Shown here: in pieces, positions 7,391 to 62,074 of the stretch
Position numbering within the stretch: the stretch's first letter is position 1
Layout of the letters: every line of letters starts with the position of its first letter
DNA from: an uncultured Planctomycetaceae bacterium
GTDB taxonomy: Bacteria > Planctomycetota > Planctomycetia > Planctomycetales > Planctomycetaceae
DNA: 64,000 bases
Assembly (NCBI GenBank): GCA_963815195.1
Contig: CAWFGE010000007.1
Span: 32,001 to 96,000 of the forward strand
Direction: 5' to 3'
The notes under the pieces: model-generated
The model's input: only the letters and a program-made list of their open reading frames with translations
Told to the model about the DNA's origin: nothing
Database searches by the model: none
Translations under genes and position numbers: made by a program

Positions 7391-8935
7391 ATGCTCACGG
7401 TGGACGATTATGCACGGATTCGTTGGGCTTATCGCGATGGCATGAGCCTCAGGGAAATTGAGAGAACATTTCATCACTCGCGAAAAAAGATTCGTGAGGT
7501 CTTGCGAGGCGCGGGCGAGCCGACGCCTTACGGCGGCAGCAAGCGGCTCCCCAATTGGGACGGTTTCACGATCGCATCCTGGAGATTCTCAAAGAGGATG
7601 AATCCGCGCCGCCCAAGCAGCGGCATACGCGGATGCGGATCTTCGAGCGGATCCGGGACGAAGACGGATACACGGGCGGCTATGATGCCGTGCGGCGGTT
7701 CGTGAACCGGCATCGGAAAAACCATGCTGAGACGTTCATCCCGTTGGATCATCGGCCCGGCCAGCGAATCGAAGCCGACTTTGGCGAGATTTCGGTGGAC
7801 TTCCCCGACGGTCGCCGGAAGGTCAACGTGCTGATCCTGGTCTGGTCGTACTCCAACCTTCCGTTCGCGGTGGCGCTGCCGACGCAGCGAACCGAAGCGA
7901 TCTTGGAGGGCATGACGCAGGCGTTTGATTTTTTCGGGTGTGTGCCGGAAGAAGTCTGGTGGGACAATCCGAAGACGGTGGCCGAGACGCTGTTGGCGGG
8001 GCGGTCGCGGAAGATCAACCCACGTTATCAAGCGCTCGCCAGTCACTATGTTTTCGATCCGCTGTTCTGCATGCCTGCGCGGGGCAATGAAAAGCCGGTG
8101 GTGGAAAACCGCGTGAAGACGTTGGAGCGGAAATGGTCCACGCCCGTGCCTCGGGTGAAGGATATGGAAGAGTTCAATGCTTATCTTCGCGAGTGCTGTT
8201 TGAAGGAACACGATCGCTGCAGCAGCGGCCAGACGCAAACGATTGGGGAGCGCTTTGCGGAGGAAAAACAGCGATCCGCTCCGCTTCCGGGGCCGCGGTT
8301 TGATCCCTGCATCCGGCAATCGGCGAAGGTCAACAAGTATCAGTTCGCGCGGTTCGACAACGTGAACTACAGCGTGCCTCGCCACGCCGCGTTTCAAACG
8401 GTGACGGTCAAAGGCTATGTGGATCGCGTCGAGATTGTGCTGAACGAAACCGTCATCGCCGTCCATAAACGGAGCTATCAGGCGGGCGAGGATGTGCTGG
8501 ATCCTTTGCACTATTTGACCACATTAACGCGTCGCCCGGCGGCTTTGGATCATGCGAACGTGTATCGCGATTGGAAGCTGCCCGCCGTGTTCGGCGAACT
8601 CCGCGAGCGTTTGGAAAGGCGGCACGGTCCCCACGCGGGCGTGCGGCAATTCGTGCGGGTGCTGCAGTTGCTGGCCGAGCATCCGCTCTCGCGCGTGCAG
8701 GCGGCGATCGAGCAACTTCGCGGCCCCGAAGGAGCCGATGCCGATCGCATCATTCGCCGCGTGGAAGCCTCCGCCCTCCGCCTGTCGGAAACATCGTCCG
8801 AGGGCATTTCCACTCCGATCGAGTGCGAACACCCCGGCGTGTTGTCGGTTCAAGTTCCCTGTCCGAGCTTGAGCCATTTTGACCAGTTCCTGTCCTCCTT
8901 CCAAGGAGATTCCGATTATGTCCCCGAACCCGAAA
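7391..8935 (+). CDS. istA: IS21 transposase IstA (frameshift near 7530-7555; 3' end overlaps istB and is approximate)
   Basis: HTH N-terminus, PGQRIEADFGE, VWWDNPKT, NEKPVVENRV and FDNVNYSVP motifs. Confidence 0.92.
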
Positions 8936-9276
8936 CACGATGCCAACCAGATGCTCCTCAAGGCCAACCTCAAGCAACTCCGGCTGCCGACAATCCTGGC
9001 CGAGTACGAGAAGTTGGCCCGCGAAGCGAGTGCCTCGAACCAGACCTTCGAGCAGTACCTGCTCCGGTTGACCGAACTGGAGGTCGCGGCCCGGCAGACC
9101 AATGCCTTGAACAGCCGGATCCGCAATGCGAACTTTCCGGTGGAGAAGGGACTGGAGGATTACGACTTCCAAGCGGTGCCCGGCCTCCACAAACAAACGA
9201 TTTTGGAGTTGGCCCGCGGGGAGTGGATTGCCCAGCATTTCAATGTGTGTTTTCTCGGCCAACCGGGGACGGGAAA

Positions 9277-9677
9277 GGTCCGACCATCACAAGACACCTC
9301 TGGTCACTCAGTTATCGCGCGGTGAGATCACCGTCATCGATCCGGCCCATCCGCTTTATGGCCGAACATTTGATTTGTTCGGCTTAGCCCGCCTGCCAGG
9401 TTATCGTCAGTATTATCAAGTCGAGATTTTTCCTGACGAGATGACCTACATCGACGTCAGCAGCACGAACCTTTCCACCGCTCCTCCCCAAAAAACTTCC
9501 TGTCTGACCCTGGACGCGCTCCAGGATTTGGTGACTACCTTTCGGGATATTCTTTCTCGGAGGGAAGCCGATGTCACCCATTGCCACGGACCAGGTGTGG
9601 AACCGTCTGACTCTTCCAGAGCAGCAGCGGATCATCCAGCAAATCGTCGTCATTCTAACGGAGGAACTGGAGCATGA
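9277..9677 (+). CDS. Element ORF1 (Y4bD/Y4pK/DUF5372-like), with no ATG of its own in the integrated state
   Basis: Open frame RSDHHKTPLVTQLSRGEITVIDPAHPLYGRTFDL..; its stop overlaps the recombinase start (ATGA); family call from recalled motif only. Confidence 0.65.
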
Positions 9678-9855
9678 ACGGATCGATGAAAGTCAGCACC
9701 AGCCATTTGAATCGCCGCGGGATCGTATATCTTCGTCAGAGCACGACGAAGCAGGTCGAGAAAAACCAAGAGAGTGCCCACAACCAGCGAGCCTTGAAAA
9801 CCCGGTTGTTGGAGTTGGGGTGGAAGCCGGAACAAGTCAGCATCCTGGAGGATGA
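9571..9855 (+). CDS. Element ORF2, small helical protein overlapping ORF1 and the recombinase
   Basis: GGAGGG RBS, then MSPIATDQVWNRLTLPEQQRIIQQIVVIL; identical in copy B (46603-46887). Confidence 0.55.
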   Translation: MSPIATDQVWNRLTLPEQQRIIQQIVVILTEELEHERIDESQHQPFESPRDRISSSEHDEAGREKPRECPQPASLENPVVGVGVEAGTSQHPGG

Positions 9856-11749
9856 TCAAGGGCAATCGGCCACGCAAACGGCGGGACGCGGGGCCTTTCA
9901 ACAGATGGTCGCCGACGTCGGCTTGGGTAAGGTCGGCATCATTCTGGGCTATGAAGTTTCACGGCTTTCCCGCAACGATGTGGATTGGCATCGACTGTTG
10001 GAATTGTGTGCGATCTTTGACACACTCATCGGTGATGTGGATGGGTTGTATCATCCACGGGATTTCAACGACAGGCTCCTCTTAGGCTTGAAGGGCACGA
10101 TGTCTTCGGCAGACTCCATAGCCTCCGATTGCGATTGGACGCGGGTCGATTGTCGAAGGCCGCGCGGGGCGAGTTGGTGCAAAACTTGCCGACGGGCTTG
10201 GTCCGCAATCTGGACAAGACGGTGATGCTCGATCCCGATCTGAGCATTCAAAAGCGATTGCATTTGGTGTTCGACAAGTTCGTGGAGTTGGGCACGATTC
10301 AAAAAGTCTTGACGTTCCTGGCCAAGAAAAATTTGAAGATTCCCCGGCGCCAAGTTTCGGGCCTTTATGCGGGCGAAGTGTTTTGGAGAGAAGCCACGGC
10401 CGCTTCGTTGGGCTCGATCCTGCATAACCCGGCTTATGCAGGCGCGTTTGCTCATGGGCGTCGGCAAGTCGATCCCACGCTACGAATTCCCGGTCGTCCT
10501 GCCACGGGTCGCACGCGCCGGCCCCAAGCGGAATGGTCGGTCTTAATTCCCGGCATCTACCCGGCCTATATCAGTTGGGAGCAGTACGAAGACAACCAAC
10601 GCCGAATCGCTCAAAACAACCTCCGCATCCAACAACGACTCGCCGCCAAGCAAGCCATCCGCAACGGCTGCGCGTTGTTAACGGGCTTATTGCGCTGCGG
10701 AAAATGCGGTCGAACGATGGGAGTGAATTACAAGGAGAACCGCTTTCAATACTCATGCAATTCTGGCTATCGGCATTACGCCCAACGATCCTGCCAGTAC
10801 TTGGGCGGCAACAAGATCGACGAGGCGGTGACGGAAGCTTTCTTTGAAGTGCTGCGGCCTGCCGAGATCGATGTGTTGGAGAAACTCTCCGCCGAAAGGG
10901 CTCGCACGCATGCGGACGTGGTTCGGCATTTGGAGCAAGACGTCGGGCGACTTGCAATACGCCGCCCATCGGGCCGAGCAACAATACGACTGTGTCGATC
11001 CCAAGAACCGTTTGATTGCGGCCAGTCTGGAAGAGAAATGGGAATCGGCTTTGTTGGCGCAAAAGCAAGCCGAAGAAAACCTGGCGGATGCCCGCCGAGA
11101 AATTCCCCAACCGATCCGCGTACCGAAGTCCTTGCGAGACGCCTTCGCGGATGTCGGGCGGCAGCTTCCCGAACTCTGGCCCGAGTTGTCTTGGGAGGCG
11201 AAGAAGTCGTTGTTGCGGACGATGATTACGGGAGTCAATCTTCACCGGCAATCGGATGGGCTGGTGCAAATTCGCATGGTCTGGGCCGGCGGTTCGGTGA
11301 CCGAAACGTCGGCTCTCCTACGGCGTTTTTCAATGAAACACACGGACTTGGAAGAGCACATCGTGGAACGCATCCGGCAAGAAACCAGCGAAGGCCGGTC
11401 GAGTGAAATGATCGCGGCGGATCTCAATCGCGAAGGCCATCATCCCTGTCGTGGCGAACAATTCACCTCGCAAATCGTGAACAAGTTAAGACATCGCTAC
11501 CGGATCAAAAGCCCGCGTGCAAAGAACCTGCCCCATGCCTGGACCGCCGCGGAAATGGCTCAGGAAATCGGGCACAACATATCCTGGATGTATCATAAAA
11601 TTGAGCAAAGACAGATCGTGGTTTCTGTCGATCCAACTTATCGGTGCTATCTGTTTCCCAAAACTGAGGAGGTTAAAGACGCCATGCTAAAACTCAAAAA
11701 TCACGAAACCGAGCAAATCACTATCCCAAGGGGGCACAACAATGGCTGA
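9674..11749 (+). CDS. Large serine recombinase (~690 aa once two indels are corrected from copy B)
   Basis: IVYLRQST catalytic Ser motif, EVSRLSRN, LLGLKGTMS, ILHNPAYAG, zinc ribbon LLTGLLRCGKCG..YSC..C. Confidence 0.93.
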
Positions 11750-12470
11750 GTCAAAACTCATATCAGCATTGGATTGGGCCTGGCCGCGTGCCGAGCGGGT
11801 TATAAGACCAAGTTCTTCACCGCCGCGGCTTTGGTGAATCGCCTGGAAGAAGCTCAGAAACATTACACCTTGGAGCGGTTGTTGAGCCAACTCGACAAGC
11901 TCGATTTGTTGATCGTGGATGAACTGGGTTACTTGTCGTTCAACCGGTCGGGAGCAGAGTTGTTGTTCCAGGTCTTCGCGGATCGCTACGAACGCAAGAG
12001 CCTGCTGATCACGAGCAACCTGGCCTTTAGCGATTGGGGGCAAATCTTCCAAGGCGAACGCATGACCGCGGCATTACTGGACCGCATCACGCACCATTGC
12101 CACATCTTCGAGATGAACGGCGAAAGCTACCGCTTCAAACAGTCGATGAAAGACAAAAAAGCGTCCGAAAACAAGAAGCCGAAAACCCGCTAAGTCGGCT
12201 CCGACGACGCCCGTCTTTCCTTCCCAACCTGCCCCATTCCACATCATTCCCCACCCCAGGTGGGTCCCATTTCCGCGCCGAAGTGGGTCCCAATTGCACG
12301 CCGATCTCCAGGCGTTGGAATGACTTAAAAACAAGGGGATTTGAAGCGGTTACGCTCTCGCTTCGTTCATACTCGCATTGTATTCATGTGGGGGTGATAT
12401 GGCCACGGGTGTTACCAAATTGTTACCAAAGTTTGAGATTCCACCGGACCAATGTCGCCGCTGGCATCCT

Positions 12471-13189: not shown

Positions 13190-16100
13190 CAGTATTCCGC
13201 CTGTGCTTTGATGATGAGGAAGATTCGTTCGACCTCGGCCTCGTCCTGAAGCACGCCGTAAAGGGCTGCTTTTATGACTTGTTCGCGGGCTTGAACTCCA
13301 CGCCAGCCATCGGGACGGACTTTCTTCACTGCGTCGTCGATCTGCAAGGCAAGCTCTCTCATTTTTGCCAAGGTTGTTGAATAGAGTGCGCGCTTGCCTG
13401 GCGTGTCGAGTTGTGCGGGCGTGTCCTCTGCCTGGCCGGCGTCAACCCTCTTCGCGAGTTCCGCAATGCGTTTCAGGTACTCTTCGTACTCGATGGCTTT
13501 TGCTTTGCGGGCCGCGATGATTTCGTCGAGCAGCGCCGACATGTTCGCGTAGAACGCGGGATCGTTCAGTTGCTCCTTCGTGATCTTTTTGCGGACGTTG
13601 TTTTCGATGGTCTCGGCAATGGCGTTCTTGTTGCCCTTCAGCCCGCCCAGCTTCGTGGCGATGGCATCGGCAATGCCCGTCTTCACGATCAATTCCAGCA
13701 AGCCCATGTTGTCAAACGGCGAAATCTTGCGTGGTTCATCGGCCTCGATGTAGGTGTCGATAAGGTGCCGCATGTCGGCTTCGTAGGGCTTGAGGTCAAG
13801 CGTCTCGCCACTGGCATTGCGGATGATCTCACGCAGCTTCAGGTATCGGTCGAGCAGTTGCTTGATGTGGGCAATGTCGGATGTGCTGTAACCCGCCTGC
13901 TCCAACTCGTCGGCAATGTTGGCGTAGGCACGAACCAGGGCTGACAACGGCCTTGTAGAGCGCTGCCCGTTGCGGCTGGCGTTCCTCCAAATCGCTCGGA
14001 GTCTCGGTGTTACCGCAGAAGTAGTGGATGTGCTCCAGTTCGCCTTGCGGTGGCTCCACCGGCTCGCATAAGAGGGCAAGGGTTTCGATGGCATTGTCGA
14101 GGCGTTCCTTACCTTTTTTCAGCCGATCCTGAAGCAGCACGTCGGGGCTGGCCCCGCCGGAACTGGTATCAAGTTCTGACGTATACACGGCGATGGCGTT
14201 TTCGACCTTCTTGAACAGGTCCTTGTAGTCCACGATGTAGCCGAAATCCTTGTCCTCACCGTCAAGCCTGTTCGTGCGGCAAATGGCCTGAAACAGGCCG
14301 TGGTCCTGCATCGACTTGTCGATGTAGAGATAGGTGCATGGCGGCGCATCGAAGCCGGTGAGCAGCTTGTCCACGACCACGAGCAGCTTCATGTTCGCCG
14401 GCTCTTTGATGAACAGTTCCTTGGCTCGCTCTTCGTAGGTCTCCGTTTTCGTCATGCCGGGCTTGGCGTCAACATTCTTGAGCAGTTCCATGTAAGTGTT
14501 GTAGATGAATTGCTTGTCCGTCTCCGTATTCGCACCGACTTCTTCCTTGGTTACGTTCTGGGCCTGTGGATTGTAGGAGGTGACAATGGCGCATTTGCCC
14601 TTGAAGGGCGTCTTCTGGAACAGCGTGAAATACTTGGAAGCCTCGTAGATGCTTGAGGCAACAAGGATCGCATTGCCTCGCTCGCTGGAAAGGCGGGGCT
14701 TCACGCTGAAATCGAAGACGATGTCCGCGACAACACGGTCCATCCGAGACTTGGAACTGAGCACCGACTGCATCGTGCCCCACTTGTGCTTCAGTTCATC
14801 CTTCTGCCAGTCATTCAGGCCTTTCGTCTTGGCGTCGAACCAGGCATCGATCTTATCCTCGGAGCCGAGCCGTTGGTCGATGTCTCGCGCTTCGTACACG
14901 AGGTCGAGCACGACTTCATCCTCGACGGCCTCGCTGAACTTGTAGGTGTGGATGTACCCGCCGAAAACTTCCCGGCTGGTCTGCTTGTCTTTCTTGAGCA
15001 GCGGCGTGCCGGTGAAGCCAATAAAGACGGCGTTGGGCATCATCGCCTTCATGGCCCGGTTCAGCTTGCCGCTTTGGGTGCGGTGGCATTCATCGACGAA
15101 CACGAACAGTTCGCCTACCGTCTGGCTCGGCTGCGATTCCAATTCCTTGATGAAAGCGTCGAAATCGTCCACACCCCTGCGGCCGAACTTGTGCACCAGG
15201 GAGCAGAGCAATCGGGGTTTTGCCTGAGCCAAGTTGCTTCATCAAGTCCCGGCCGCTGCTGGTGCGTTTGATGGCTTCGCCTGTCTCGGTGAAGACGCGC
15301 TCAATCTGCCCGTCCAAGCTCGTCGCGGTCGGTGATGATCGCGACGCGGGCGTTGGGGTTGTTCTCCAGAATCCATTTGGCGAGCAGCACCATGACGATG
15401 CTTTTCCCGCTGCCCTGGGTGTGCCAGATGATGCCGCCCTTCTTCTGCCGGACATGCTCCTGGGCGGCCTTGATGCCGAAATACTGATGCACGCGGGGCA
15501 GCTTCTTCACGCCGCCGTCAAACAGCACGAAATCGTGCATCAACTCGATGATGCGGTGCTTGTCGCAGAGCTTGAGCAGGTACTTGTCCAGCTTGAAGCG
15601 GGTATTGTCTTCCTCGTCTTCTTTCCATTTGAGGAAATACTTCTCTTCGGTCTTGATCGCTCCATATTGCAGGCCCTGCGAATCGTTGCCGGCGAAGACG
15701 AATTGCACAGTGCTGAAAAACCACTCGTTGAATTCAGGCTGCTGGTTGGACAGATTCTGGCGGATGCCGTCGCCGATGGTGACGCGGCTGTTCTTGAGTT
15801 CGATCACGCCGATGGCAATGCCGTTGACGTAAAGCACGAGATCAATCCGCCGCTCCAGGCCGCCTTTGAGGGTCACTTCCTCGGCAATGGCGAAATCGTT
15901 TTCTTCTGGCTTTTGCCAGTTGATGAGGCGGACGGTCTCGGTCACCTTGCCGGCCTCAATCTTGACGGGCACGCCATAGCGAAGCAGGTTGTAGACGGCC
16001 TGGTTGTTGCCGTAGAGCGTGCGGTTGTGGTTGTCGGCCTCGGTGCGCAGCTTGTAGATCGCCGCGCTGATCTGTGCCGGCGTGTTGCCCTGTTTCGTCA

Positions 16101-16242
16101 GCCAAGCGGAAAGCAGGTCTTCCTCGATGTTGCTGTTGGTGCGGTCCGTCCAGTCGCCGAGATAGCGATACTTGAGTTCGTCCTGAAACAGGGCGAGAAC
16201 CCGGTCCTGCGTGGCGCGTTCAGGTTGGCCGATGTTGCTCAT
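13189..16242 (-). CDS. hsdR: Type I restriction endonuclease subunit R (several frameshifts)
   Basis: IDLVLYVNGI..ELKN, WHTQGSGKS, DECHR, GFTGTP, LLTGFDAP, QAICRTNR. Confidence 0.95.
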
Positions 16243-17599
16243 TGCATAACCTCCCAATGACCGCCCTTGGCTGGACCGACCCGTTGCAGCTTGCCTTCTG
16301 CCGTGAGTTTTGCTGACCGCTCGTTCGACGGCGCTCTGGGATTTGCCAATGCTGGCAGCAACATCCGCCAAGCTGTAGTCAGGATGCTCGGCCAATACTG
16401 CAAGAATTTTCTCCGGCGTTTTTACCCGCGTTTTCACCGGCGTTTTCACCTCAGTTTCCCCCAAATTTTCGGCCGATTCAATCCGTTTCACAATGTCCGA
16501 AGAAAACGGGAAGGAAATCCACAATCCCGCCGGTTCCTGCTCGATGATGGTTCCGGGAAGCGGGCTTCACGGCAGGCGGCAAAAATCCGTTCGACGCCGC
16601 GTCCCCAAGCCTCGATCTCTCCCGCTCGAAAGAAGATGTTGGCAATATCGGGATTAAATGGGAGCGAAGCATGTTTGCGTTTGAGCTTCGCCACCGTCCA
16701 GGCCTGAGGAAGCTGGCCGGGGTTCCAAACCATGAGTTTATCCGCATACACGCTGATTTGCACCGGCGTGCCGCTGGCATAATCCTTATGAATAATCGCA
16801 TTCAGAACGGCTTCGCGGAGAGCCGGTTCGGGCACGGGGAGCGTTTCAACCCGCTGAATGCCCTGATAGGTGATGGCGGCTTTCAGGTATTTGGTCAGAA
16901 GCAGGTCGATCGTGCGGCTGACCTGCGTAAACAGGTCGCCGTGGACTTCATCGTGATAGAGCAGGTCGTCATTCGTGCGGAAATAGCCAATCTTCACGAA
17001 AGCGCCGGTCACGAACTTTTCCGGATCGGGATGAAAGGCCAGCACGGCGGCACGTTTAAGGTAGTTTCCCATCGTTCAGATGCAATTTTTCGATGAGACC
17101 GGCCGTCGATTCTTTCAGGTCAGGCGGCGGTCATCCGCTGGCTTTGCCGCGCCCGCGTGCGAAACGCTTCGATGGCGTCCTTCGACAAGTTTCGTGCCGT
17201 GACTTTGGGCACGGGCACGCCGTCCCAGGTTCTGCCCTGCTTGGCGAGCAGGAATTTGTCGAGGGCGGCTCCTTTGAGTTGCTGTTTGGTGCTGCCGGAA
17301 CGAATGTGGTACTCCCCCTTGTAATTCACCGGGTAGGGGTACGGATCGACGTGAATTTCGATCAGGTCTTTGCGTTTTTCGGAAACGAGCCGCACATTGG
17401 CCATGATGCCCAGCACGTCACGGATTTTGTTCGGCAGGTCCTCAAGCAGCTTTTTGGCGTCCGCAACACCGATGGCTTGCCCCTTGTCGTTTCGGCCGAT
17501 GACCAAAACACCTCCTTCCGCGTTGGCAAAGCCACAGAGCCATTTGAGGTACTCATCCCGCCAGGACTCTTTCCATTCGGTGTGCTGACTTTCCTTCAT
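16239..17599 (-). CDS. AlbA_2 (Schlafen-like) plus HATPase_c_4 plus HTH protein; frameshifted
   Basis: ESQHTEWKES..CGFANAEGGVLVIG; ALREAVLNAIIHKDY; NPDIANIFFRAGEIEAWGRG; C-terminal HTH. Confidence 0.85.
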
Positions 17600-28958: not shown

Positions 28959-29688
28959 TTGGTTCCCGTGATGGTCCGGCACGACTTGCAAACCTCCGAT
29001 GCGTTGGGAGCCGCGGCTTCGCAACTGGGGCCGAACCTCCAGGCGGTGATCGCGTTTCTCAATAAACGCTGTGGGCTGTCTCACGGCAAGATCGTGCAAT
29101 TCTTTCGGGAGCTGTTTGACATTCGGCTGTCGCGGGCGGCTCGGTCCAAGCCACGCTGCGGGCGGGACGCCGTTGTCGAGAGGTTTACAACGCGATCGTC
29201 AAGTCGGTGCGGGGATCGCCTTGGGGCGGTGCCGGACGAAACCGGTTGGAAAATCGGCGGCCGACCCGTTTGACGCATGTTTCTTATTTCGTCTTATTTC
29301 GCAGAATCAAAGTAAACTTGTGATTCTGGGTCGTCTGGGAAATCGAGCGTGTTATCAAAACCAGAATCGTTACCGGCGTTGCGCGGCACCTCCCTCTGTG
29401 GGCCACCACACTGACAGGCCAATGATTCGGCAAACCCGGATTATTCACAAGGCACCGAGTGCTAGCACGGTTTCGCCCGCATTTTTCAACGCGAAACGCA
29501 CTTTTCGAGTGCTTGTTTGCCTTCACCAAATTGGTGAAGCGTCTTTTTGAGTGAAAACACGCACTTCCTCAAGGAAAAACAGAGGGGGGTGTAACCGGTC
29601 ACCCCGGTTACACCCAAACAGAGGTTTTTGGACGATCGCAGCGATGGCTCGTGAATAATCCGGGGCAAAAGAGTCGCTATTCAATCAC
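28959..29688 (+). mobile_element. IS66-family remnant with right end, carrying a MITE
   Basis: HDLQTSDALGAAASQLGP and PDETGWKIGG fragments; paralogous to 38410-38666; right end CGCTATTCAATCAC. Confidence 0.75.
29435..29664. mobile_element. 230-bp non-autonomous IS1380-type MITE
   Basis: Ends CCCGGATTATTCAC / GTGAATAATCCGGG; 5-bp TSD GCAAA; homologous empty site at 38631-38655. Confidence 0.9.
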
Positions 29689-37915: not shown

Positions 37916-38671
37916 GTAATTGATTAGCGTATTGACTCGCTCCATTTTTCCGCGAAAATTCACTTGGGATTGCGGTCATGGAGGTGGTGGAATGAAGCGG
38001 TCTAAATGGCAATCGTTTCAGGCAGAAAATCGGCGGCTCTGTCAGGAGAACCGATCCCTGAAACAACGCGTGGCCCAACTGGAATCCCAAGTGGCCCAAT
38101 GGGTTGCTCGAGTGGCGCAACTTGAATCGCAAGTTGCCCAACAGGAAACGCACATTGCCCAGTTGACCACCCAACTCGAGGCTTCACAGCGGCAGGCCAA
38201 GCGGCAAGCGGCTCCCTTTTCCAAAGGGCCGCCCAAAGCCCACCCGAAAAAACGCCCGGGGGCCGGTATGGGGTCAAGACTCACCACCAACCGCCGCCTC
38301 CCGAAGCGATCGATGAGTTTTTATCAGACGGAAATTCCCTGCCGCGTGATCTATCGCCAATTTCACATCCACATCGGATGCTGCGAGGAGTGCGGCCAGC
38401 GGGTGCAGGGGCGGCACGACTTGCAAACCTCCGATGCGTTGGGAGCGGGCACTTCGCAACTGGGGCTGAACCTCCAGGCGGCGATCGCGTTTCTCAATAA
38501 ACGCTGCGGGCTGTTCCACGGCAAGATCGTGCAGTTCTTTCGAGAACTCGTCACCGTCAAAACGCGATCATGTTTCAGAGCCGCCGCCTCCGCAGCACGC
38601 CACCCCCTCTGTGGGCCACCACCCCGACAGGCCAATGATTCGGCAAAAGAGTCGCAATTCAATCACATCAC
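37916..38671 (+). mobile_element. Internally deleted IS66-family element
   Basis: GTAATTGATTAGCG left end and matching right end; 8-bp TSD CGCTCGCC (37908-37915, 38672-38679); coiled-coil, RQAAPFSKG and CEECG fragments. Confidence 0.85.
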
Positions 38672-43699: not shown

Positions 43700-44705
43700 G
43701 GGGCGAACCTACCAGCAGTCTGGCAGGCTGGCAAGCATTATTTCCTGCAAGCCAGCAAGACAGTTCGCCATCACGACAACATGTCATCCTGATGGCTTGA
43801 TGGAAAGCCAGTCGTCTTTCACCCTTGCAAGATGGATTGCTTGCAAGCTGTCCCATTGTCGTTCCAGATTGCTGGCAAGCTGACATGCATGCAAGCCGGT
43901 TGGATGGCTCGCAAGTTGTCTGGCAAGACAGCATGCGGACCGGCTTGAAAGATGCTTTCCCGGTGAAATCTGCCTTAGCAAAGCTAAGGGAAGATGTCTG
44001 AACACAAATCATTTGGGCCAGCAAGCCAACTGACTCAGGGAAAGCGAGGAAATGGGCGGGCGATCTGGCAGGGAAATGATCGGTTGGAGACGGAGTAAGT
44101 TGGGTGGCTGAGACGCCGCCCGACTGGAGCCGCACCTGCGTCAGGACTTCGGGATGCGGGACGGCGTCCGGGTTGTCCGGGTGTTCGGCGTCAATTAGCT
44201 CTGCTCTTTAGCGTCAATTAGATTGACCGTGCAAGAGGGAGAAATCGACGGGCATCAGCCTTTGGAGCCAGGCTTTGACTCGTCCGAATCGGCCGAGTTT
44301 TTCTTGTTTTTCTTGGCGGTTTCCAAGCGGTAGCTGGGGATGTTCAACTCGATGATGATCGAGTGATGGATCAAACGGTCGATGGCCGCCGCGGTCGTCA
44401 TGGGATCCTTGAAGATTTGCTCCCATTGAGAGAAAGGCAGATTGCTGCTGATCAGAAGGCTGCCCCGTTCGTAGCGTTCGGCCAGGAGCGTGAACAGCAC
44501 TTCCATCTCCTCGCGGCTCTGTTGAACATAGCCCAAGTCGTCGATGATCAGCGCTTCGTAGCGGCTGAGCTTTTTGATCCACTTCTCCAACCGCAGGTCG
44601 CGTTTGGCCCGCAGGAGTTCTTGGACCAGCATCTGGCAGGTTGTGAATAACACCGTGCGGCCTTGACGCGCGAGTTGGTCGCCGAGTGCGGATAACAGAT
44701 TCGTC

Positions 44706-47181
44706 TTGACTCAGCCATTGTTGTGCCCCCTTGGGATAGTGATTTGCTCGGTTTCGTGATTTTTGAGTTTTAGCATGGCGTCTTTAACCTCCTCAGTTTT
44801 GGGAAACAGATAGCACCGATAAATTGGATCGACAGAAACCACGATCTGTCTTTGCTCAATTTTATGATACATCCAGGATATGTTGCGCCGATTTCCTGAG
44901 CCATTTCCGCGGCGGTCCAGGCATGGGGCAGGTTCTTTGCACGCGGGCTTTTGATCCGGTAGCGATGTCTTAACTTGTTCACGATTTGCGAGGTGAATTG
45001 TTCGCCACGACAGGGATGATGGCCTTCGCGATTGAGATCCGCCGCGATCATTTCACTCGACCGGCCTTCGCTGGTTTCTTGCCGGATGCGTTCCACGATG
45101 TGCTCTTCCAAGTCCGTGTGTTTCATTGAAAAACGCCGTAGGAGAGCCGACGTTTCGGTCACCGAACCGCCGGCCCAGACCATGCGAATTTGCACCAGCC
45201 CATCCGATTGCCGGTGAAGATTGACTCCCGTAATCATCGTCCGCAACAACGACTTCTTCGCCTCCCAAGACAACTCGGGCCAGAGTTCGGGAAGCTGCCG
45301 CCCGACATCCGCGAAGGCGTCTCGCAAGGACTTTGGTACGCGGATCGGTTGGGGAATTTCTCGGCGGGCATCCGCCAGGTTTTCTTCGGCTTGCTTTTGC
45401 GCCAACAAAGCCGATTCCCATTTCTCTTCCAGACTGGCCGCAATCAAACGGTTCTTGGGATCGACACAGTCGTATTGTTGCTCGGCCCGATGGGCGGCGT
45501 ATTGCAACGCCCGACGTCTTGCTCCAAATGCCGAACCACGTCCGCATGCGTGCGAGCCCTTTCGGCGGAGAGTTTCTCCAACACATCGATCTCGGCAGGC
45601 CGCAGCACTTCAAAGAAAGCTTCCGTCACCGCCTCGTCGATCTTGTTGCCGCCCAAGTACTGGCAGGATCGTTGGGCGTAATGCCGATAGCCAGAATTGC
45701 ATGAGTATTGAAAGCGGTTCTCCTTGTAATTCACTCCCATCGTTCGACCGCATTTTCCGCAGCGCAATAAGCCCGTTAACAACGCGCAGCCGTTGCGGAT
45801 GGCTTGCTTGGCGGCGAGTCGTTGTTGGATGCGGAGGTTGTTTTGAGCGATTCGGCGTTGGTTGTCTTCGTACTGCTCCCAACTGATATAGGCCGGGTAG
45901 ATGCCGGGAATTAAGACCGACCATTCCGCTTGGGGCCGGCGCGTGCGACCCGTGGCAGGACGACCGGGAATTCGTAGCGTGGGATCGACTTGCCGACGCC
46001 CATGAGCAAACGCGCCTGCATAAGCCGGGTTATGCAGGATCGAGCCCAACGAAGCGGCCGTGGCTTCTCTCCAAAACACTTCGCCCGCATAAAGGCCCGA
46101 AACTTGGCGCCGGGGAATCTTCAAATTTTTCTTGGCCAGGAACGTCAAGACTTTTTGAATCGTGCCCAACTCCACGAACTTGTCGAACACCAAATGCAAT
46201 CGCTTTTGAATGCTCAGATCGGGATCGAGCATCACCGCCTTGTCCAGATTGCGGACCAAGCCCGTCGGCAAGTTTTGCACCAACTCGCCCCGCGCGGCCT
46301 TCGACAATCGACCCGCGTCCAATCGCAATCGGAGGCTATGGAGCTCTGCCGAAGACATCGTGCCCTTCAAGCCTAAGAGGAGCCTGTCGTTGAAATCCCG
46401 TGGATGATACAACCCATCCACATCACCGATGAGTGTGTCAAAGATCGCACACAATTCCAACAGTCGATGCCAATCCACATCGTTGCGGGAAAGCCGTGAA
46501 ACTTCATAGCCCAGAATGATGCCGACCTTACCCAAGCCGACGTCGGCGACCATCTGTTGAAAGGCCCCGCGTCCCGCCGTTTGCGTGGCCGATTGCCCTT
46601 GATCATCCTCCAGGATGCTGACTTGTTCCGGCTTCCACCCCAACTCCAACAACCGGGTTTTCAAGGCTCGCTGGTTGTGGGCACTCTCTTGGTTTTTCTC
46701 GACCTGCTTCGTCGTGCTCTGACGAAGATATACGATCCCGCGGCGATTCAAATGGCTGGTGCTGACTTTCATCGATCCGTTCATGCTCCAGTTCCTCCGT
46801 TAGAATGACGACGATTTGCTGGATGATCCGCTGCTGCTCTGGAAGAGTCAGACGGTTCCACACCTGGTCCGTGGCAATGGGTGACATCGGCTTCCCTCCG
46901 AGAAAGAATATCCCGAAAGGTAGTCACCAAATCCTGGAGCGCGTCCAGGGTCAGACAGGAAGTTTTTTGGGGAGGAGCGGTGGAAAGGTTCGTGCTGCTG
47001 ACGTCGATGTAGGTCATCTCGTCAGGAAAAATCTCGACTTGATAATACTGACGATAACCTGGCAGGCGGGCTAAGCCGAACAAATCAAATGTTCGGCCAT
47101 AAAGCGGATGGGCCGGATCGGTGACGGTGATCTCACCGCGCGATAACTGAGTGACCAGAGGTGTCTTGTGATGGTCGGACC
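44706..47181 (-). mobile_element. Large serine recombinase element, copy B
   Basis: Near-identical to 9277-11754 (a few SNPs and indels); core TT at 47182-47183 and 44706-44707. Confidence 0.95.
44711..46784 (-). CDS. Large serine recombinase, copy B (indels near 45505 and 44885)
   Basis: Same motifs as copy A. Confidence 0.93.
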
Positions 47182-47579
47182 TTCCCCGAGCCGGGCGCCG
47201 AAAATCAGCAAGTTGTCGCGACGGTCCAAGAACGTGCCGCTCTTGAGGGTCTCGAATTGCTGGGTCACATGCAGGGGCAGCCGCGACCATTGGAATTGCT
47301 CCCAGGTTTTGCCTTCCAAGAGCTTCGAGTTCCTGAGCAGCCGATCGATGCGGTTTTGGTGACGGGCCTGGCATTCCTTCTGAGTCAATTCCCAGAGGTA
47401 TTGGGGATGCGTCCAATTCTCCCGCGCCGCCTGTTCGGCCACCATCGGGTATTGTTCCCGAAACGTCGGCAGCTTGAGTTCTTTCAGTTGGTCCGCCAAC
47501 CGGGCGGGATGGATCGCCGGCGAAGGACTCGCGGTCTTCGCCGCCCTGGGGGTCTTCGAGGGAGACGTTTTCTTCTTCA

Positions 47580-48466
47580 TTATGAGAAACCTCCTGTGAG
47601 GGGAGTAAGGAATCGAACACGGACAGATCGGGAGGCTCGACGCGAACCTCCAAGGGACTGGGCAATTGCTGCCGGCGTTTGACGAGGTCCAGGACTTTCT
47701 CCGCCTGGACCGGAATGCCTTCGGAGAGGCACCACCTGAGCACGTCATCCACCAAGTCCAAGCCTTCGTGCTTGGCGGCGTGCAGGATTTTCAGATACTG
47801 CTTGATTGCGGATTTCTCGTCATTTCGGGAGACGAGTTGATCGTAGGCCATCCGAAACCGAGTCGTCGGATACAGATGATTGACGTATTTGTAATTGAGG
47901 AAGGCCCCCGGCTTTCGGATCAAGGAATCGATCACATGCCGAAAGTCGATGTGCTCTTTGCCTTGACCAAACAGCCTCGGGAGGCGTTCCAAGCAGTCCC
48001 CGCGATACCGAAGCTCCAGATGGTCTTGATGAATCAGAATGTCGAGTTCCAAGCCGACGTACTGGCTGCTCACCGAATACAGGTTGCGTTTGATCCTCAA
48101 GATGCAATCGGATTTGACCTGCACCCGCACGCGAGTGGTCGAGGGCAGCCGCTTGAAAGGCAATGGCCGAAGCGCCGCACATTCCTTCTCAAAGGCACTG
48201 GTCCGCCCGGCATTGCGGCGCGTCACCACTTGCTTTAAGAACTCCCGGTATGCCTCGACTGTCTCGAAGTCGCGATGGCCCCGCAGCCGGAGGGTCTGAT
48301 CCAGCCAGGTCTTGAAGTGGCCGTGGGCCGACTCCACATCCCCGTTCTCGTGAGGCTTTCGCACGTTGATCCGATGCCCTTTGAGGCCATAGTGATCCAA
48401 CAGCGCTTGGTACGCTCTCGCGAATTGCTTGTCGCTGGAGAGGTTGTTCACCGCCGCTGACAGGCT
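47580..48466 (-). pseudogene. istA: IstA transposase, 3' half only
   Basis: SLSAAVNN..YQALLDHYGL..PHENGDVESAHGHFK; RNLYSVSS; HVIDSLIRKPGAF. Confidence 0.85.
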
Positions 48467-49651
48467 GCACAGCGTTTCGAAGCTCGGCACGCGGCCGCGT
48501 TCGAGGGCCTGTTTCAGTCCCGTGAGCCGCCAGTTGGTGTAGCCGTGGATGTGGCCGTTTTCGTCGCCGCATTGCTCATAGAGAGATGCCAACCCTTCGT
48601 TGAACCAGGACGGGCAAGCCGGAAAATTGGCGGCCATGAAGGGGTGCACGATTTCATGGACCAGCGTCCCGCCGCCGGTGGAGATATTCATCACCAAGGC
48701 GTTGTGGGCCGCACTGTAATAGCCGTAGGGCGTCGTGGGCCGGTCCCTCAAAAACTCCCAGGCGTGTTTTTCGTAGCTGTCCTTGTCCTGAAACAGCCAG
48801 ACATTGATGATGTCGTCCGGATCGCGCTGGAAAAAATCTTTCTTGAGTCTTTTGACCGCCCACTCGACCGTCTGCCGGCTGCGGCGTTTGACCCTCTCCG
48901 CGTCTTCGTCACCGACGACGACGAAGGGCTTTTCAATGACCATCGTGAAATCCCGGCCGGCGAGTTTCTCCTTCAGCCCCAGGATGTGCTGGGCAAAGTC
49001 GGCATCGGTCATCCGCCGGGTCCTGGAGCCTTCCTTCAAATGATCCGGAACCAGGGGCATGCGGATCAGCGTCCATTTCTTGGGATCGTACTTCAGCGGC
49101 CAGAGCTTCAAAAACAGTTCGCGGTCCATTCGCCGATAGGCCCCGTCCTTCGCCGCCGGCTCGTGGTAGATGACTTCATCGTCCCGCTGGGAATAGCCCA
49201 CGATCAGGCGGAAATGCTCCGTGGTGCGGGGCTGGTCGCTGTAATGCATGCAGACGATGGAAGGCACGCCTCGCTTCAGGTCGCGGTGGAGTTGGCGGAA
49301 TTGGGCGTCCAATTCGGCCTCCGCGCGGTCGGCTTCGATCGCATACCACGCCGGGCCGATGTCGAAGCCGATGGTTTTGAGCGAGTTTACCAAATCCCGC
49401 GTGTAGCAACCTCGGCCCAGGAGCGGATCGAGACCGGATTGATCGAACACCCAATCTTGATCGACCGTCCGCCCCAACCGCTGCATCGCCATCGCCACGC
49501 AGGCTTCGCCGCAGAAGTCGGGCTTTTGCCGAATGTGGGGCATGTTTTCGATCATCACACTGTCGAGCGGGGAATCGACCTGGGCGGTCGAACTCCACAA
49601 AACGCCCAACGAACTCGGCAACAATAGCAAAGGGACCGCAAACTTCCACAT
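48467..49651 (-). pseudogene. Secreted peptidase-C39-like plus HExxH (DUF1570/peptidase MA-like) protein, C-terminus replaced by istA
   Basis: Signal peptide, QKPDFCGEAC, EHFRLIVGY, TLVHEIVHPF..WFNEGLAS. Confidence 0.7.
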
Positions 49652-49697
49652 GGGATTCGCCTTTTTGGAAGATGAACTTGGGTTTGAAAAAAGTAGG

Positions 49698-49975
49698 CCC
49701 GCCCCGTTGGGGCTTTTGCATCTTGTTCGTTCCCGTTTCCCAGGGCTTCGCCCTGGGCTGACATAGAGCCGGACCTTCGGTCCTTTTTCCGTAATTTGGA
49801 ACGACTGAATTGAATATCCGTACTTCAAAAAGCTCAGGAAATTGGTTTGGTTTTCAAGAGCCGCGCACGAAGTAAGCGGTTTTCAGGGACTCAGACAACG
49901 CAAGACCGCTTACTTCGTGCGCGGCTCAGGCCTTTTTGCAAGACCGCTTACTTCGTGCGCGGCTCAGGCCTTTTT
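49698..49975. repeat. Intergenic REP-like palindromes and a 38-bp tandem duplication
   Basis: CCCAGGGCTTCGCCCTGGG hairpin; GAGCCGCGCACGAAGTAAGCGGT (49858) inverted to copies at 49905 and 49943. Confidence 0.7.
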
Positions 49976-61938: not shown

Positions 61939-62074
61939 CGGACTCACTTGGTTAAAGTCTGGTGAGTCCCGGCAATCGTCGCGGAATCCGCGTTCCCAAA
62001 TGCGGTTCGGGTCCGTAAGATGGTGTTGCGCAGATTCCGGCAAACCGCCGGGGTTCCCACGGCCGGCCCGGTCA

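What the first reader, a model, noticed from the sequence alone, without database searches (positions are those of the whole stretch)
9277..11754. Serine-recombinase element that targets the Walker A codon of IS21 istB genes (a parasite of transposons)
Seen: the same ~2.48-kb element (ORF1, ORF2, large serine recombinase; no IRs or TSD) occurs twice, at 9277-11754 (+) and 44706-47181 (-). Both copies sit in the Lys codon of GxxGxGK|T, co-oriented with the host gene, in two clearly different istB genes. The reconstructed targets are CCGGGGACGGGA-AA-AACTCATATC and CCGGCTCGGGG-AA-GACGAATCTG, sharing little beyond the motif codons. Known: large serine recombinases exchange at a 2-bp core, which fits the AA core. 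Inference: the element uses a conserved protein motif as a degenerate attB. This gives it a multi-copy, non-essential, mobile landing pad. Near-identity with a few SNPs suggests recent movement. ORF1 resembles Rhizobium Y4bD/Y4pK proteins (from memory), so relatives may be known even if this targeting is not.
Basis: partly seen in the sequence, partly recalled or inferred. Interest (0 to 1): 0.92.

Follow-up and report, generated by a model that had tools for sequence, protein, structure and literature searches.

The report
Serine-recombinase mini-element that homes into istB
A 2.5-kb jumping element driven by a large serine recombinase has inserted itself, at single-base precision and always in the same orientation, into the ATP-binding-loop codon of the helper gene (istB) of several unrelated IS21 insertion sequences, which makes it a parasite of other jumping genes.

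Summary
The 2478-nt element lies at 9277-11754 (+) and 44706-47181 (-), 2476/2486 identical. Both copies split Pfam IstB_IS21 at profile position 106, between AA and the third base of the Walker A Lys codon, co-oriented with istB. The whole genome holds 9 left and 7 right junctions plus 3 contig ends. All are at this codon, in at least three diverged istB types. An unoccupied paralogue shows a single AA, so there is no target duplication. Three of eight copies keep an intact 691-aa recombinase.

In metagenomes, a clade of relatives (52-67% identity, same gene order) sits at the same codon: 12 of 14 left and 16 of 17 right junctions. More distant relatives (33-44%) are not in istB. Several of them abut truncated IS66 tnpB, IS91 or rve transposase genes, or another recombinase gene.

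ORF1 is a DUF5372-like protein whose stop overlaps the recombinase start. It is predicted to bind the recombinase (0.75; best control 0.00). Its start codon lies at the element's far end.

Five literature searches found no description. This scan has noted the same kind of element before on other DNA. Recombination itself is untested.

The parts
9277..11754 (+). Element copy 1 (2478 nt; one copy of the AA core counted with the element)
   Evidence: Equals G000:C7:41277-43754.
44706..47181 (-). Element copy 2 (2476 nt)
   Evidence: Equals G000:C7:76706-79181.
9275..9276 (+). AA core at attL of copy 1 (first two bases of the Walker A Lys codon). The matching AA at attR is 11753-11754.
   Evidence: A single AA is present in the empty paralogue.
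8879..9276 (+). istB type 1, N-terminal part, ending ..Q-P-G-T-G-K(AA)
   Evidence: Pfam IstB_IS21 positions 2-106 of 238, E 9.5e-20
11755..12193 (+). istB type 1, C-terminal part: third base of the Lys codon, then T-H-I-S-I-G-L..
   Evidence: Pfam IstB_IS21 positions 106-236 of 238, E 1.6e-48
7555..8890 (+). istA of the host IS21 type 1 (rve + Mu-transpos_C_2). The 3' limit is approximate, because the open frame runs on to 9387.
9279..9677 (+). ORF1 (132 codons within the element). It is a DUF5372-like candidate partner of the recombinase. Its stop overlaps the recombinase start (ATGA). It has no start codon at its 5' end in the integrated state.
   Evidence: Homologues at 36-40% identity in 9 aligned relatives. 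Predicted complex. Atlas search.
9571..9855 (+). ORF2 (94 codons), overlapping the ORF1 tail and the recombinase start in another frame. Its reality is doubtful.
   Evidence: No Pfam family. The tblastn similarity in relatives may come from the overlapping genes.
9674..11749 (+). Large serine recombinase gene, copy 1. It is broken by -1 after 10113 and +1 at 10950. The intact form is 691 aa.
   Evidence: Short-read contigs of other runs carry the intact state at both places.
44711..46784 (-). Large serine recombinase gene, copy 2. The first 446 codons are intact (45444-46784), then it is broken by -1 near 45507 and -1 near 44889.
11728..11744 (+). Shine-Dalgarno-like AAGGGGG and an ATG at the right end. 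Across a closed circle they read in frame into ORF1.
   Evidence: Read. Conserved in relatives. Earlier scan note e1-7815939.
47182..47490 (-). istB type 2, N-terminal part, ending ..P-G-S-G-K(AA), with a 2-nt gap just before the motif relative to the C9 paralogue
44255..44705 (-). istB type 2, C-terminal part (T-N-L-L-S-A-L..)
   Evidence: Pfam IstB_IS21 positions 106-236 of 238, E 8.7e-36

Best explanation
This is an autonomous, minimal integrative element of about 2.48 kb. It consists of a DUF5372-like ORF1 translationally coupled to a 691-aa large serine recombinase (LSR), with no cargo. It moves by conservative site-specific recombination between its own joined ends (attP, in an excised circle) and a degenerate attB. 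That attB is the DNA encoding the Walker A loop G-x-x-G-x-G-K-[T/S] of IS21-family istB genes. Strand exchange occurs at the AA of the Lys codon. Because AA is not a palindrome, it fixes one orientation.

Insertion truncates IstB after the P-loop Lys and so disables the host IS. Excision would restore istB exactly. The target is multi-copy, dispensable to the cell, horizontally mobile and conserved across phyla.

Shown here: the anatomy, the junctions, independent insertions into diverged istB genes, and the same site in a clade of relatives.

Inferred: LSR catalysis, the circular intermediate and the 2-bp core.

More speculative: ORF1 binds the zinc-ribbon and C-terminal region of the LSR and acts as its accessory or directionality factor. 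Because ORF1's ribosome-binding site and start codon lie at the other end of the element, ORF1 (and the coupled LSR) would be fully expressed only from the circle.
For: In the window, two copies split IstB_IS21 at profile position 106, co-oriented with istB.

In the genome, 9 of 9 left and 7 of 7 right junctions are at the AA. Three further contig ends start exactly with the type-3 right flank. The flanks belong to at least three istB types (T1, T2, T3/T3b), while the elements are about 99.6-100% identical.

Empty paralogues show a single AA and no loss or duplication.

Intact 691-aa LSR frames are present in 3 of 8 copies. S23 in Y-x-R-x-S and the zinc-ribbon cysteines are invariant in 13 aligned LSRs. 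The Pfam domains are found, and the closest solved structure is SPbeta SprA.

The attP arms show imperfect dyad symmetry: 12/30 in this element (7.5 +/- 2.3 in shuffles; 4% of shuffles reach it) and 14-19/30 in seven relatives.

In the metagenome clade, 12 of 14 left and 16 of 17 right junctions are at the same codon of istB genes, some only 25-30% identical to this genome's IstB fragments. The clade is monophyletic (SH-aLRT 100, quick tree). The target logo conserves only codon positions 1 and 2.

Independent short-read contigs from other runs show T3-left, T3-right and T2-right junctions as loose ends exactly at 9275 and 11754.

ORF1 and LSR: predicted complex score 0.75, best of 3 controls 0.00. 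That mark was reached by 116 of 157 solved complexes and 2 of 215 mismatched pairs. The runs agree in at least 64% of contacts and the partner's pLDDT is at least 68. My own alignments were used, so the counts hold only roughly.
Against: No recombination has been observed. No contig shows an attP joint or a restored site of the same istB allele (contigs drop rare forms).

Both window copies and 5 of 8 genome copies have frameshifted LSR genes.

Two clade members are not in istB. L075 is at an unrelated site with a TA core. L091 is in another serine recombinase gene.

At least 6 istB P-loop sites in the same genome are unoccupied, with no evident sequence reason.

Identical T1/T1 copies could have multiplied with IS21 or by duplication, so the number of independent insertions in this genome is at least 3-4, not 9.

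ORF1 has no Pfam hit, and its fold model is poor (mean pLDDT 56.7).

The conserved ATG at the right end overlaps the conserved D-G-stop of the LSR and the attP arm, so its conservation need not reflect ORF1 translation.
Confidence: 0.85

Rival explanations
1. The recombinase module is a passenger of one IS21 variant. It spread only by IS21 transposition or segmental duplication and has no targeting of its own.
For: Several copies share identical T1 flanks for 0.5-2 kb. Those copies could have been copied together with their IS21.
Against: Near-identical elements lie in istB genes of three or more types that share little beyond the motif. Relatives at 52-67% identity lie at the same codon of still other istB genes. 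IstB is disrupted, so the carrier IS is disabled.
Confidence: 0.03
2. The element was copied between istB genes by homologous recombination or gene conversion through the flanking istB sequence, not by site-specific recombination.
For: Three copies have mixed flanks: C15 has T1-left and T2-right, C12 has T3-left and T1-right, C16 has T1b-left and T3b-right. Recombination between copies therefore does occur, or the assembly mis-joined them.
Against: The flanks of different types are too diverged to support homologous exchange. The boundary is the same base pair in all types and in relatives. Mixed flanks are better explained by later homologous recombination between the 2.5-kb element copies themselves.
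Confidence: 0.03
3. The element is kept as a reversible genetic switch that turns IS21 transposition off and on, in the manner of gene-interrupting elements excised by serine recombinases. It is not a selfish parasite.
For: Excision would restore istB exactly. The orientation is fixed.
Against: The element is multi-copy and sits in several IS types, some of them truncated or frameshifted. Related clades target unrelated genes. The pattern is that of a spreading element.
Confidence: 0.06
4. Assembly artefact: a repeat was wrongly placed inside istB genes.
For: The genome appears to carry many split genes in this window (hsdR, DUF3987). One site in the element has four different states among copies, so indel errors are likely.
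Against: The same junctions appear in contigs of independent runs and in about 20 independent metagenome contigs of relatives.
Confidence: 0.01

Closest known systems
Tn4451/Tn4453 (TnpX) and Tn5397 (TndX) of clostridia: transposons moved by a large serine recombinase
   Same: A large serine recombinase acts as the only 'transposase'. Movement is by excision to a circle and reinsertion. There is a 2-bp crossover, no inverted repeats and no target duplication. Gene expression depends on the circular joint (recalled for tnpX).
   Different: Those elements carry cargo (resistance genes) and use loosely defined targets. This element has no cargo, is 2.5 kb, and has a target defined by the codons of a protein motif in another mobile element. 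Here the gene completed at the joint would be ORF1, not the promoter of the recombinase.
Phage and prophage serine integrases with a recombination directionality factor (SPbeta SprA/SprB, Bxb1 Int/gp47, phiC31 Int/gp3)
   Same: The same domain order (Resolvase, Recombinase, Zn ribbon). SPbeta SprA is the best solved-structure match, E 2.6e-8. A small partner is predicted to bind near the zinc ribbon. Integration is precise and inside a gene, and is reversible in principle.
   Different: This is not a phage or island, since the whole element is the recombination module. It has many target copies per genome rather than one attB. Any directionality logic may differ, because ORF1 lacks a start codon in the integrated state.
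IS607 family (serine-recombinase insertion sequences; recalled)
   Same: A small element moved by a serine recombinase, without inverted repeats or target duplication.
   Different: IS607 TnpA is a small serine recombinase with an N-terminal DNA-binding domain and low target specificity. Here the enzyme is a large serine recombinase with C-terminal Recombinase and Zn-ribbon domains and high specificity.
DUF5372 + LSR modules on rhizobial plasmids (e.g. three copies on pNGR234a; annotated only as 'recombinase family protein')
   Same: LSR 39-44% identical. A small DUF5372 gene comes first and the LSR last. They are compact, repeated, and often sit beside or inside IS genes. In the Bradyrhizobium and Paraburkholderia records opened, the LSR 3' end abuts a truncated IS66 tnpB.
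   Different: They carry an extra HTH gene and a further small ORF annotated as 'transposase'. Their targets differ: IS66 tnpB, dctP, another LSR gene. They are not in istB.

Membership tests
Large serine recombinases | N-terminal resolvase catalytic domain with the nucleophilic serine | tested here: met
   PF00239, E 4e-17. S23 in Y19-x-R21-x-S23 is invariant in 13 sequences. The role of that serine comes from general knowledge of the family.
Large serine recombinases | C-terminal Recombinase domain followed by a zinc ribbon domain | tested here: met
   PF07508, E 4.2e-12. PF13408, E 1.7e-10. C342, C345, C362 and C374 are invariant.
Large serine recombinases | Conservative exchange at a 2-bp core between attP and attB, with no duplication | tested here: inconclusive
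   The sequence fits: AA at both junctions and once in the empty paralogue. The chemistry was not observed.
Large serine recombinases | attP with imperfect dyad symmetry around the core | tested here: met
   12/30 matching positions in this element (4% of shuffles reach this). 14-19/30 in seven relatives. One relative is a perfect 9+2+9 palindrome.
IS21 IstB (the target) | IstB_IS21 family with a Walker A motif, beside an IstA transposase | tested here: met
   The two halves match PF01695 positions 2-106 and 106-236. istA with rve + Mu-transpos_C_2 lies upstream.
DUF5372 (ORF1) | Match to PF17342 | tested here: inconclusive
   No Pfam hit even at E <= 10 and no BLASTP match to the pNGR234a DUF5372 protein. 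hhalign aligns 20 columns, E 0.002, probability 13.5%. In the ESM Atlas, 29 of 30 nearest clusters are DUF5372; top score 0.94, 225 of 256 features shared.
Recombination directionality factor (ORF1) | Binds the integrase and switches the direction of recombination | not testable with these tools
   Only a predicted complex is available: 0.75 against a best control of 0.00. Direction cannot be computed.
IS607 family | Small serine recombinase transposase with an N-terminal DNA-binding domain | tested here: not met
   The enzyme is 691 aa with C-terminal Recombinase and Zn-ribbon domains.

The most novel reading that the evidence does not exclude
This would be one clade of a large, undescribed family of DUF5372+LSR mini-elements that behave as 'insertion sequences of insertion sequences'. 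Each clade would use the codons of a conserved motif in another mobile element's gene as its attB: the istB P-loop here, and IS66 tnpB, the IS91 zinc-binding domain, rve transposases or even other LSR genes elsewhere. The elements would sense their own state through a gene (ORF1) that is whole only across the circle joint. Its product would bind the recombinase as a directionality factor of possibly reversed polarity, needed for integration rather than excision.
Probability: 0.4. Interest if true: 0.88.

Novelty: new variant of a known kind. Interest (0 to 1): 0.8.

Why it matters
It would show that a site-specific recombinase can use the DNA shadow of a protein motif as a degenerate, phylum-spanning landing pad. 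It would also show that mobile elements carry their own specialised parasites that switch them off reversibly.

In practice it offers three things:
- A natural set of compact serine integrases with known, short, related attB/attP pairs and tolerated wobble positions, useful for studying how these enzymes read DNA.
- A candidate new class of integrase partner (DUF5372).
- A marker that explains many 'broken' istB annotations.

The mixed flanks suggest that the copies also drive genome rearrangement.

Tried and rejected
1. I looked for circle (attP) or empty-site joints in public data. Only Logan contigs of four metagenome runs could be laid, and they gave no joints. Contigs drop rare forms, so this says nothing either way.

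2. I searched a sample of 400 other genomes of the same phylum with the LSR. 17 had homologues at 33-40% identity, but none had IstB fragments at the ends or ORF1/ORF2 homologues. These belong to other clades.

3. The genome-contig scan with the N-terminal 446 aa found only two loci, at 44% and 23% identity.

4. ORF1 against Pfam and against the pNGR234a DUF5372 protein by BLASTP gave nothing.

5. The ORF1 fold model has mean pLDDT 56.7. I judged it too poor for a fold search, so none was run.

6. The first 1.45 kb of contig C6, beside a 90-nt diverged right-end remnant, has no LSR similarity.

7. The careful tree did not finish in 300 s, so only the quick tree is reported.

8. Shared-flank lengths are ungapped estimates. 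They cannot separate independent insertions from co-duplication with IS21.

9. I considered a frameshift that would fuse IstB to ORF1 in the integrated state. ORF1 is in the +1 frame of istB, and the G-GGA-AAG heptamer at the type-1 junction would lead into the other frame. I dropped the idea.

10. Literature searches found no description. I saw only listings and abstract starts, and I opened no paper.
Full report
**1. The observation**

The window holds two inverted copies of a 2.48-kb sequence, with arms at 9263-11757 and 44703-47195. They are 2476/2486 identical, with four gap positions and six substitutions.

The identity beyond the element proper (9263-9276, 11755-11757) comes only from the shared P-loop codons of the two host genes. 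The junctions read as follows:
- Copy 1: ..CAA CCG GGG ACG GGA AA|GGTCCGACC.. on the left and ..GGCTGAGTC AA|A ACT CAT ATC.. on the right.
- Copy 2: ..CCC GGC TCG GGG AA|GGTCCGACC.. on the left and ..GAGTC AA|G ACG AAT CTG.. on the right.

Pfam puts the upstream host fragment at IstB_IS21 positions 2-106 of 238 and both downstream fragments at 106-236. Both copies therefore interrupt istB between the second and third base of the Walker A lysine codon, in the same orientation as istB. The two host genes are clearly different.

**2. The element**

Reading both copies in all frames and comparing all genome copies gives the following anatomy.

- ORF1 spans 9279-9677 (132 codons).
- Its stop overlaps the start of a large serine recombinase gene in an ATGA (9674).
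- The recombinase is 691 aa when intact and ends 5 nt before the right end (stop at 11747-11749).
- It has Resolvase, Recombinase and Zn_ribbon_recom domains (E 4e-17, 4e-12, 2e-10).
- An invariant Y-x-R-x-S23 and invariant zinc-ribbon cysteines are found in 13 aligned sequences.
- Its best solved relative is SPbeta SprA (E 2.6e-8).

Both window copies are frameshifted. Copy 1 lacks a base after 10113 and has an extra base at 10950. Copy 2 lacks a base at each of the equivalents of 10950 and 11571.

Three of the eight long copies in the genome (C15, C18, C12) have the uninterrupted 691-codon gene. Short-read contigs of four other public runs carry the intact state at both places that are broken in copy 1 (+G after 10113 in X1 and X3; one base fewer at 10950 in X1, X2 and X4).

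One site (10112-10114) has four different states among the copies. Several unrelated genes in the window are split, including hsdR and DUF3987. I therefore suspect that some of these frameshifts are assembly errors, but I cannot show it.

ORF2 (9571-9855) overlaps the ORF1 tail and the recombinase start in a third frame and has no family match. Its similarity in relatives may only mirror the overlapping genes. I treat it as doubtful.

**3. The census in the whole genome**

The window is contig C7:32001-96000 of an 8.87-Mb, 25-contig genome.

- A DNA search finds eight full or nearly full copies, one copy truncated after 679 nt and one 90-nt diverged remnant.
- A scan with the element's end sequences finds 9 left and 7 right junctions.
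- All 9 left junctions follow ..G-x-G-K(AA) of an IstB N-terminal fragment.
- All 7 right junctions continue with the third base of the Lys codon and T/S-H..
- Three further contig ends (C21 start, C14 end, C19 end) begin exactly with the type-3 right flank. The assembler evidently broke at more copies.

The flanks fall into at least three types:
- T1: ..QPGTGK|THISIGLG..
- T2: ..APGSGK|TNLLSALG..
- T3/T3b: ..PPGTGK|SHCCQAVG..

The same genome also has unoccupied P-loop sites: C10, C15:309679, C23:241468 (T3-like), two in C14 (T2-like), and a T2-like paralogue in C9. In the C9 paralogue, the T2 left flank, one AA and the T2 right flank are contiguous.

That paralogue is the best evidence that insertion is conservative, with nothing duplicated and nothing lost.

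T1 left flanks are shared for 1.1-2.0 kb and T1 right flanks for about 0.52 kb before the contexts diverge. The host IS21 copies therefore lie at different places. Identical T1/T1 copies may still have multiplied together with their IS. The safe count of independent insertions in this genome is three to four.

**4. Mixed flanks**

Three copies have a left flank of one istB type and a right flank of another:
- C15: T1 left, T2 right
- C12: T3 left, T1 right
- C16: T1b left, T3b right

Site-specific integration cannot produce this. Homologous recombination between 2.5-kb element copies sitting in different IS21s can. C12 and C16 look like a roughly reciprocal pair. Mis-joins by the assembler across the repeat are the alternative, and I could not exclude them because only contigs, not raw reads, were available.

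**5. Relatives**

(a) Same-phylum sample. 17 of 400 other genomes have a homologue at 33-40% identity. None of the 19 loci examined has IstB fragments at the element ends or an ORF1/ORF2 homologue. One (L011) has an intact istB 2 kb away.

(b) Plasmids. 483 records match, the best at 40% identity, mostly rhizobia.
- In a Bradyrhizobium plasmid and a Paraburkholderia plasmid, the recombinase's 3' end abuts a truncated IS66 tnpB.
- In Microvirga the element splits a dctP gene.
- pNGR234a has three modules of DUF5372 gene, HTH gene, small ORF and recombinase.

(c) Metagenome contigs. 33 loci were returned. Those with 48-67% recombinase identity also have ORF1 in the same position.

Among these, 14 loci have at least 100 nt upstream of the left end. 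12 of them end in an IstB N-terminal fragment exactly at G-x-G-K. This is 10 of 12 if the near-duplicate pairs L079/L080 and L086/L087 are counted once.

17 loci have at least 50 nt downstream of the right end. 16 of them continue with an IstB-like C-terminal part starting at the residue after the lysine. Of these, 14 were found by tblastn and 2 (L084, L095) were read by eye.

These istB genes are diverse; several are only 25-30% identical to this genome's IstB N-terminal fragments. L081 is 99.5% identical to the present element and is probably the same population.

There are two exceptions. L075 sits at an unrelated site with a TA core, and its joined ends form a perfect palindrome of 9+2+9 bases. 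L091 sits inside the N-terminal domain of another serine recombinase gene.

In a quick maximum-likelihood tree of 39 recombinases, the istB-associated ones form one clade (15 rows, SH-aLRT 100). L075 is nested inside it. Partial or duplicate loci were left out of the tree: L060, L062, L072, L078, L080, L081, L087, L091, L093-L097, L099, L101 and L103-L106. The careful search did not finish.

(d) Right flanks of the distant relatives. 102 flanking ORFs from 19 loci were scanned.
- TnpB_IS66 cut at profile position 66 of 101 at the junction (L054).
- Zn_Tnp_IS91 cut at 52 of 90 (L050).
- HTH+rve transposases ending at the junction (L011, L052).
- A second recombinase gene lacking its catalytic domain (L064).
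- An IS630-like HTH (pNGR234a, L068).
- Ordinary genes or nothing recognisable in the rest (for example FGE-sulfatase, RHS, TetR_C).

So a good part of the wider family, though not all of it, also sits in genes of other mobile elements. I did not rejoin those targets, so 'abuts' is all that is shown there.

**6. The target**

Aligning 15 left and 17 right half-sites shows which positions are fully or nearly invariant. They are the first and second codon positions of G, G, G, K and T/S, plus the downstream ..A-L-G.. codons at +17 to +24. Third positions are free. The left half is much better conserved than the right.

The element therefore recognises what the protein motif forces the DNA to be. 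Why six such sites in this genome are empty is not explained.

**7. The ends**

The left arm and the reverse complement of the right arm match at 12 of 30 positions. Shuffles give 7.5 +/- 2.3, and 4% of them reach 12. Seven relatives match at 14-19 of 30, with shared CCA, C-CC and TGG blocks. This is the imperfect dyad expected of a serine-integrase attP (general knowledge of the family).

The right end carries AAGGGGG, then six bases, then ATG (11728-11744). Across a closed circle this ATG reads in frame into ORF1 (my reading).

At the equivalent position, 12 of 17 distinct relatives have ATG, 1 has GTG, 3 have CTG and 1 has none. A GGAGGTGCA-N(4-5)-ATG/GTG motif near the recombinase stop recurs in the distant relatives too. 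However, this stretch also encodes the conserved ..D-G-stop of the recombinase and is part of attP, so its conservation has other possible causes.

**8. ORF1**

Nine relatives give a 133-column alignment with 17 invariant positions, 36-40% identity to this ORF1 and a core ..V-T-V-x-D-P-x-H-P-L-F-G-R... In the nine relatives whose ORF1 frame is uninterrupted, the frame ends exactly at the recombinase start.

- Pfam finds nothing.
- hhalign aligns 20 columns to the pNGR234a DUF5372 protein (E 0.002, probability 13.5%).
- 29 of the 30 nearest ESM-Atlas clusters are DUF5372 (top score 0.94).
- The fold model is poor: mean pLDDT 56.7, six short strands and one long helix.

A predicted complex of the full recombinase with ORF1 residues 1-100 scored 0.75 against a best control of 0.00. 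That mark was reached by 116 of 157 solved complexes and 2 of 215 mismatched pairs. The runs agree in at least 64% of their contacts and the partner's pLDDT is at least 68. My own alignments were used, so the counts hold only roughly. The contacts lie on recombinase residues 341-346 (zinc ribbon), 393-408 and 481-544, and on ORF1 residues 22-27, 50-56 and 72-95.

The model supports binding; it does not show it. Solved integrase-RDF complexes exist (SPbeta), so some of this may be likeness to them. I read ORF1 as the recombinase's accessory factor. Which direction it favours cannot be told from sequence.

**9. Mechanism proposed**

The recombinase excises the element as a circle by attL x attR. 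It then inserts the circle by attP x attB at the AA of an istB P-loop, with the non-palindromic core fixing the orientation.

In the circle, ORF1 gains its start codon and, through the ATGA overlap, may raise recombinase translation. After integration the gene is split again and expression drops.

The anatomy, the junctions and the site recurrence are shown. The rest is inference from the known chemistry of serine integrases and, for the expression logic, from analogy with Tn4451 (recalled).

**10. What is known**

Five full-text searches returned no paper that describes such an element or its target:
- istB / serine recombinase / Walker A
- DUF5372, 0 papers
- istB / large serine recombinase / interrupted / integrase
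- large serine recombinase / insertion sequence / transposase gene / target site / mobile element
- serine recombinase / IS21 / inserted into / attB

I saw only listings and abstract starts. Subscription journals are not covered.

Earlier notes of this scan report the same kind of element in at least eight other genomes. Those are AI notes. My own test of their central claim is in section 5.

**11. Verdict**

This is a real, well-delimited, probably active site-specific element. It is a new variant of the serine-recombinase mobile elements, distinguished by minimal size, a DUF5372-like partner and a target defined by the P-loop codons of another transposon's helper gene.

Noticed in passing
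G000 contig C6:1454-1545 (locus L010/L020): A 90-nt stretch, 81% identical to the element's right end, abuts a type-1 istB C-terminal part, but the junction is shifted or degraded by about 5 nt. AT-rich sequence upstream has no recombinase similarity. It may be a fossil of an older or related element.
   Followed up: partly
window 46781-49828 (-): A single 1015-codon open frame joins a Peptidase_C39_2 domain to a 5'-truncated IstA (rve_3, Mu-transpos_C_2) and runs on into the ORF1 frame of element copy 2. The type-2 IS21 seems truncated or inserted in a C39-peptidase-like gene.
   Followed up: no
window 47195-47200 (-) compared with G000 C9 ~15030-15130: The type-2 istB carrying copy 2 lacks 2 nt just upstream of the Walker A codons relative to its unoccupied paralogue. 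The host gene was, or became, frameshifted independently of the insertion. The C9 paralogue is itself frameshifted elsewhere.
   Followed up: partly
window 10112-10114 and the equivalent site in 7 other copies: Four different states (GA-, GAA, GAG, AGA) occur at one site among otherwise ~99.8% identical copies. This looks like a systematic base-calling or assembly error site, or a hypervariable codon (Glu/Arg/frameshift).
   Followed up: partly
window 13829-16524 (-), 60128-62043 (-): A type I restriction hsdR gene and a DnaB-N/DUF3987 gene are each split into two ORFs in the middle of a domain. The window also holds a truncated hsdM, an IS630-like fragment, a DDE_Tnp_1_4 transposase and a tyrosine integrase. 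Either the region is rich in decay or the assembly has indel errors.
   Followed up: no
L091:1-272 and L064:5491-7275: Two relatives appear to have landed inside another serine recombinase gene. L091 follows a ..AIYTRKSTEE..IRSQTHE N-terminal catalytic domain. L064 is followed by a Recombinase+Zn-ribbon ORF that lacks the catalytic domain. Elements of this family may target each other.
   Followed up: partly
window 28968-29113 and 38403-38548: A 146-nt direct repeat, 89% identical and 9.4 kb apart, lies near the two OprB-type porin genes. It probably reflects a paralogous gene pair.
   Followed up: no
G000 C8:399180-399858 (L009): An element copy is truncated after its first 679 nt, with a normal type-1 left junction. 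What replaced the rest was not examined.
   Followed up: no
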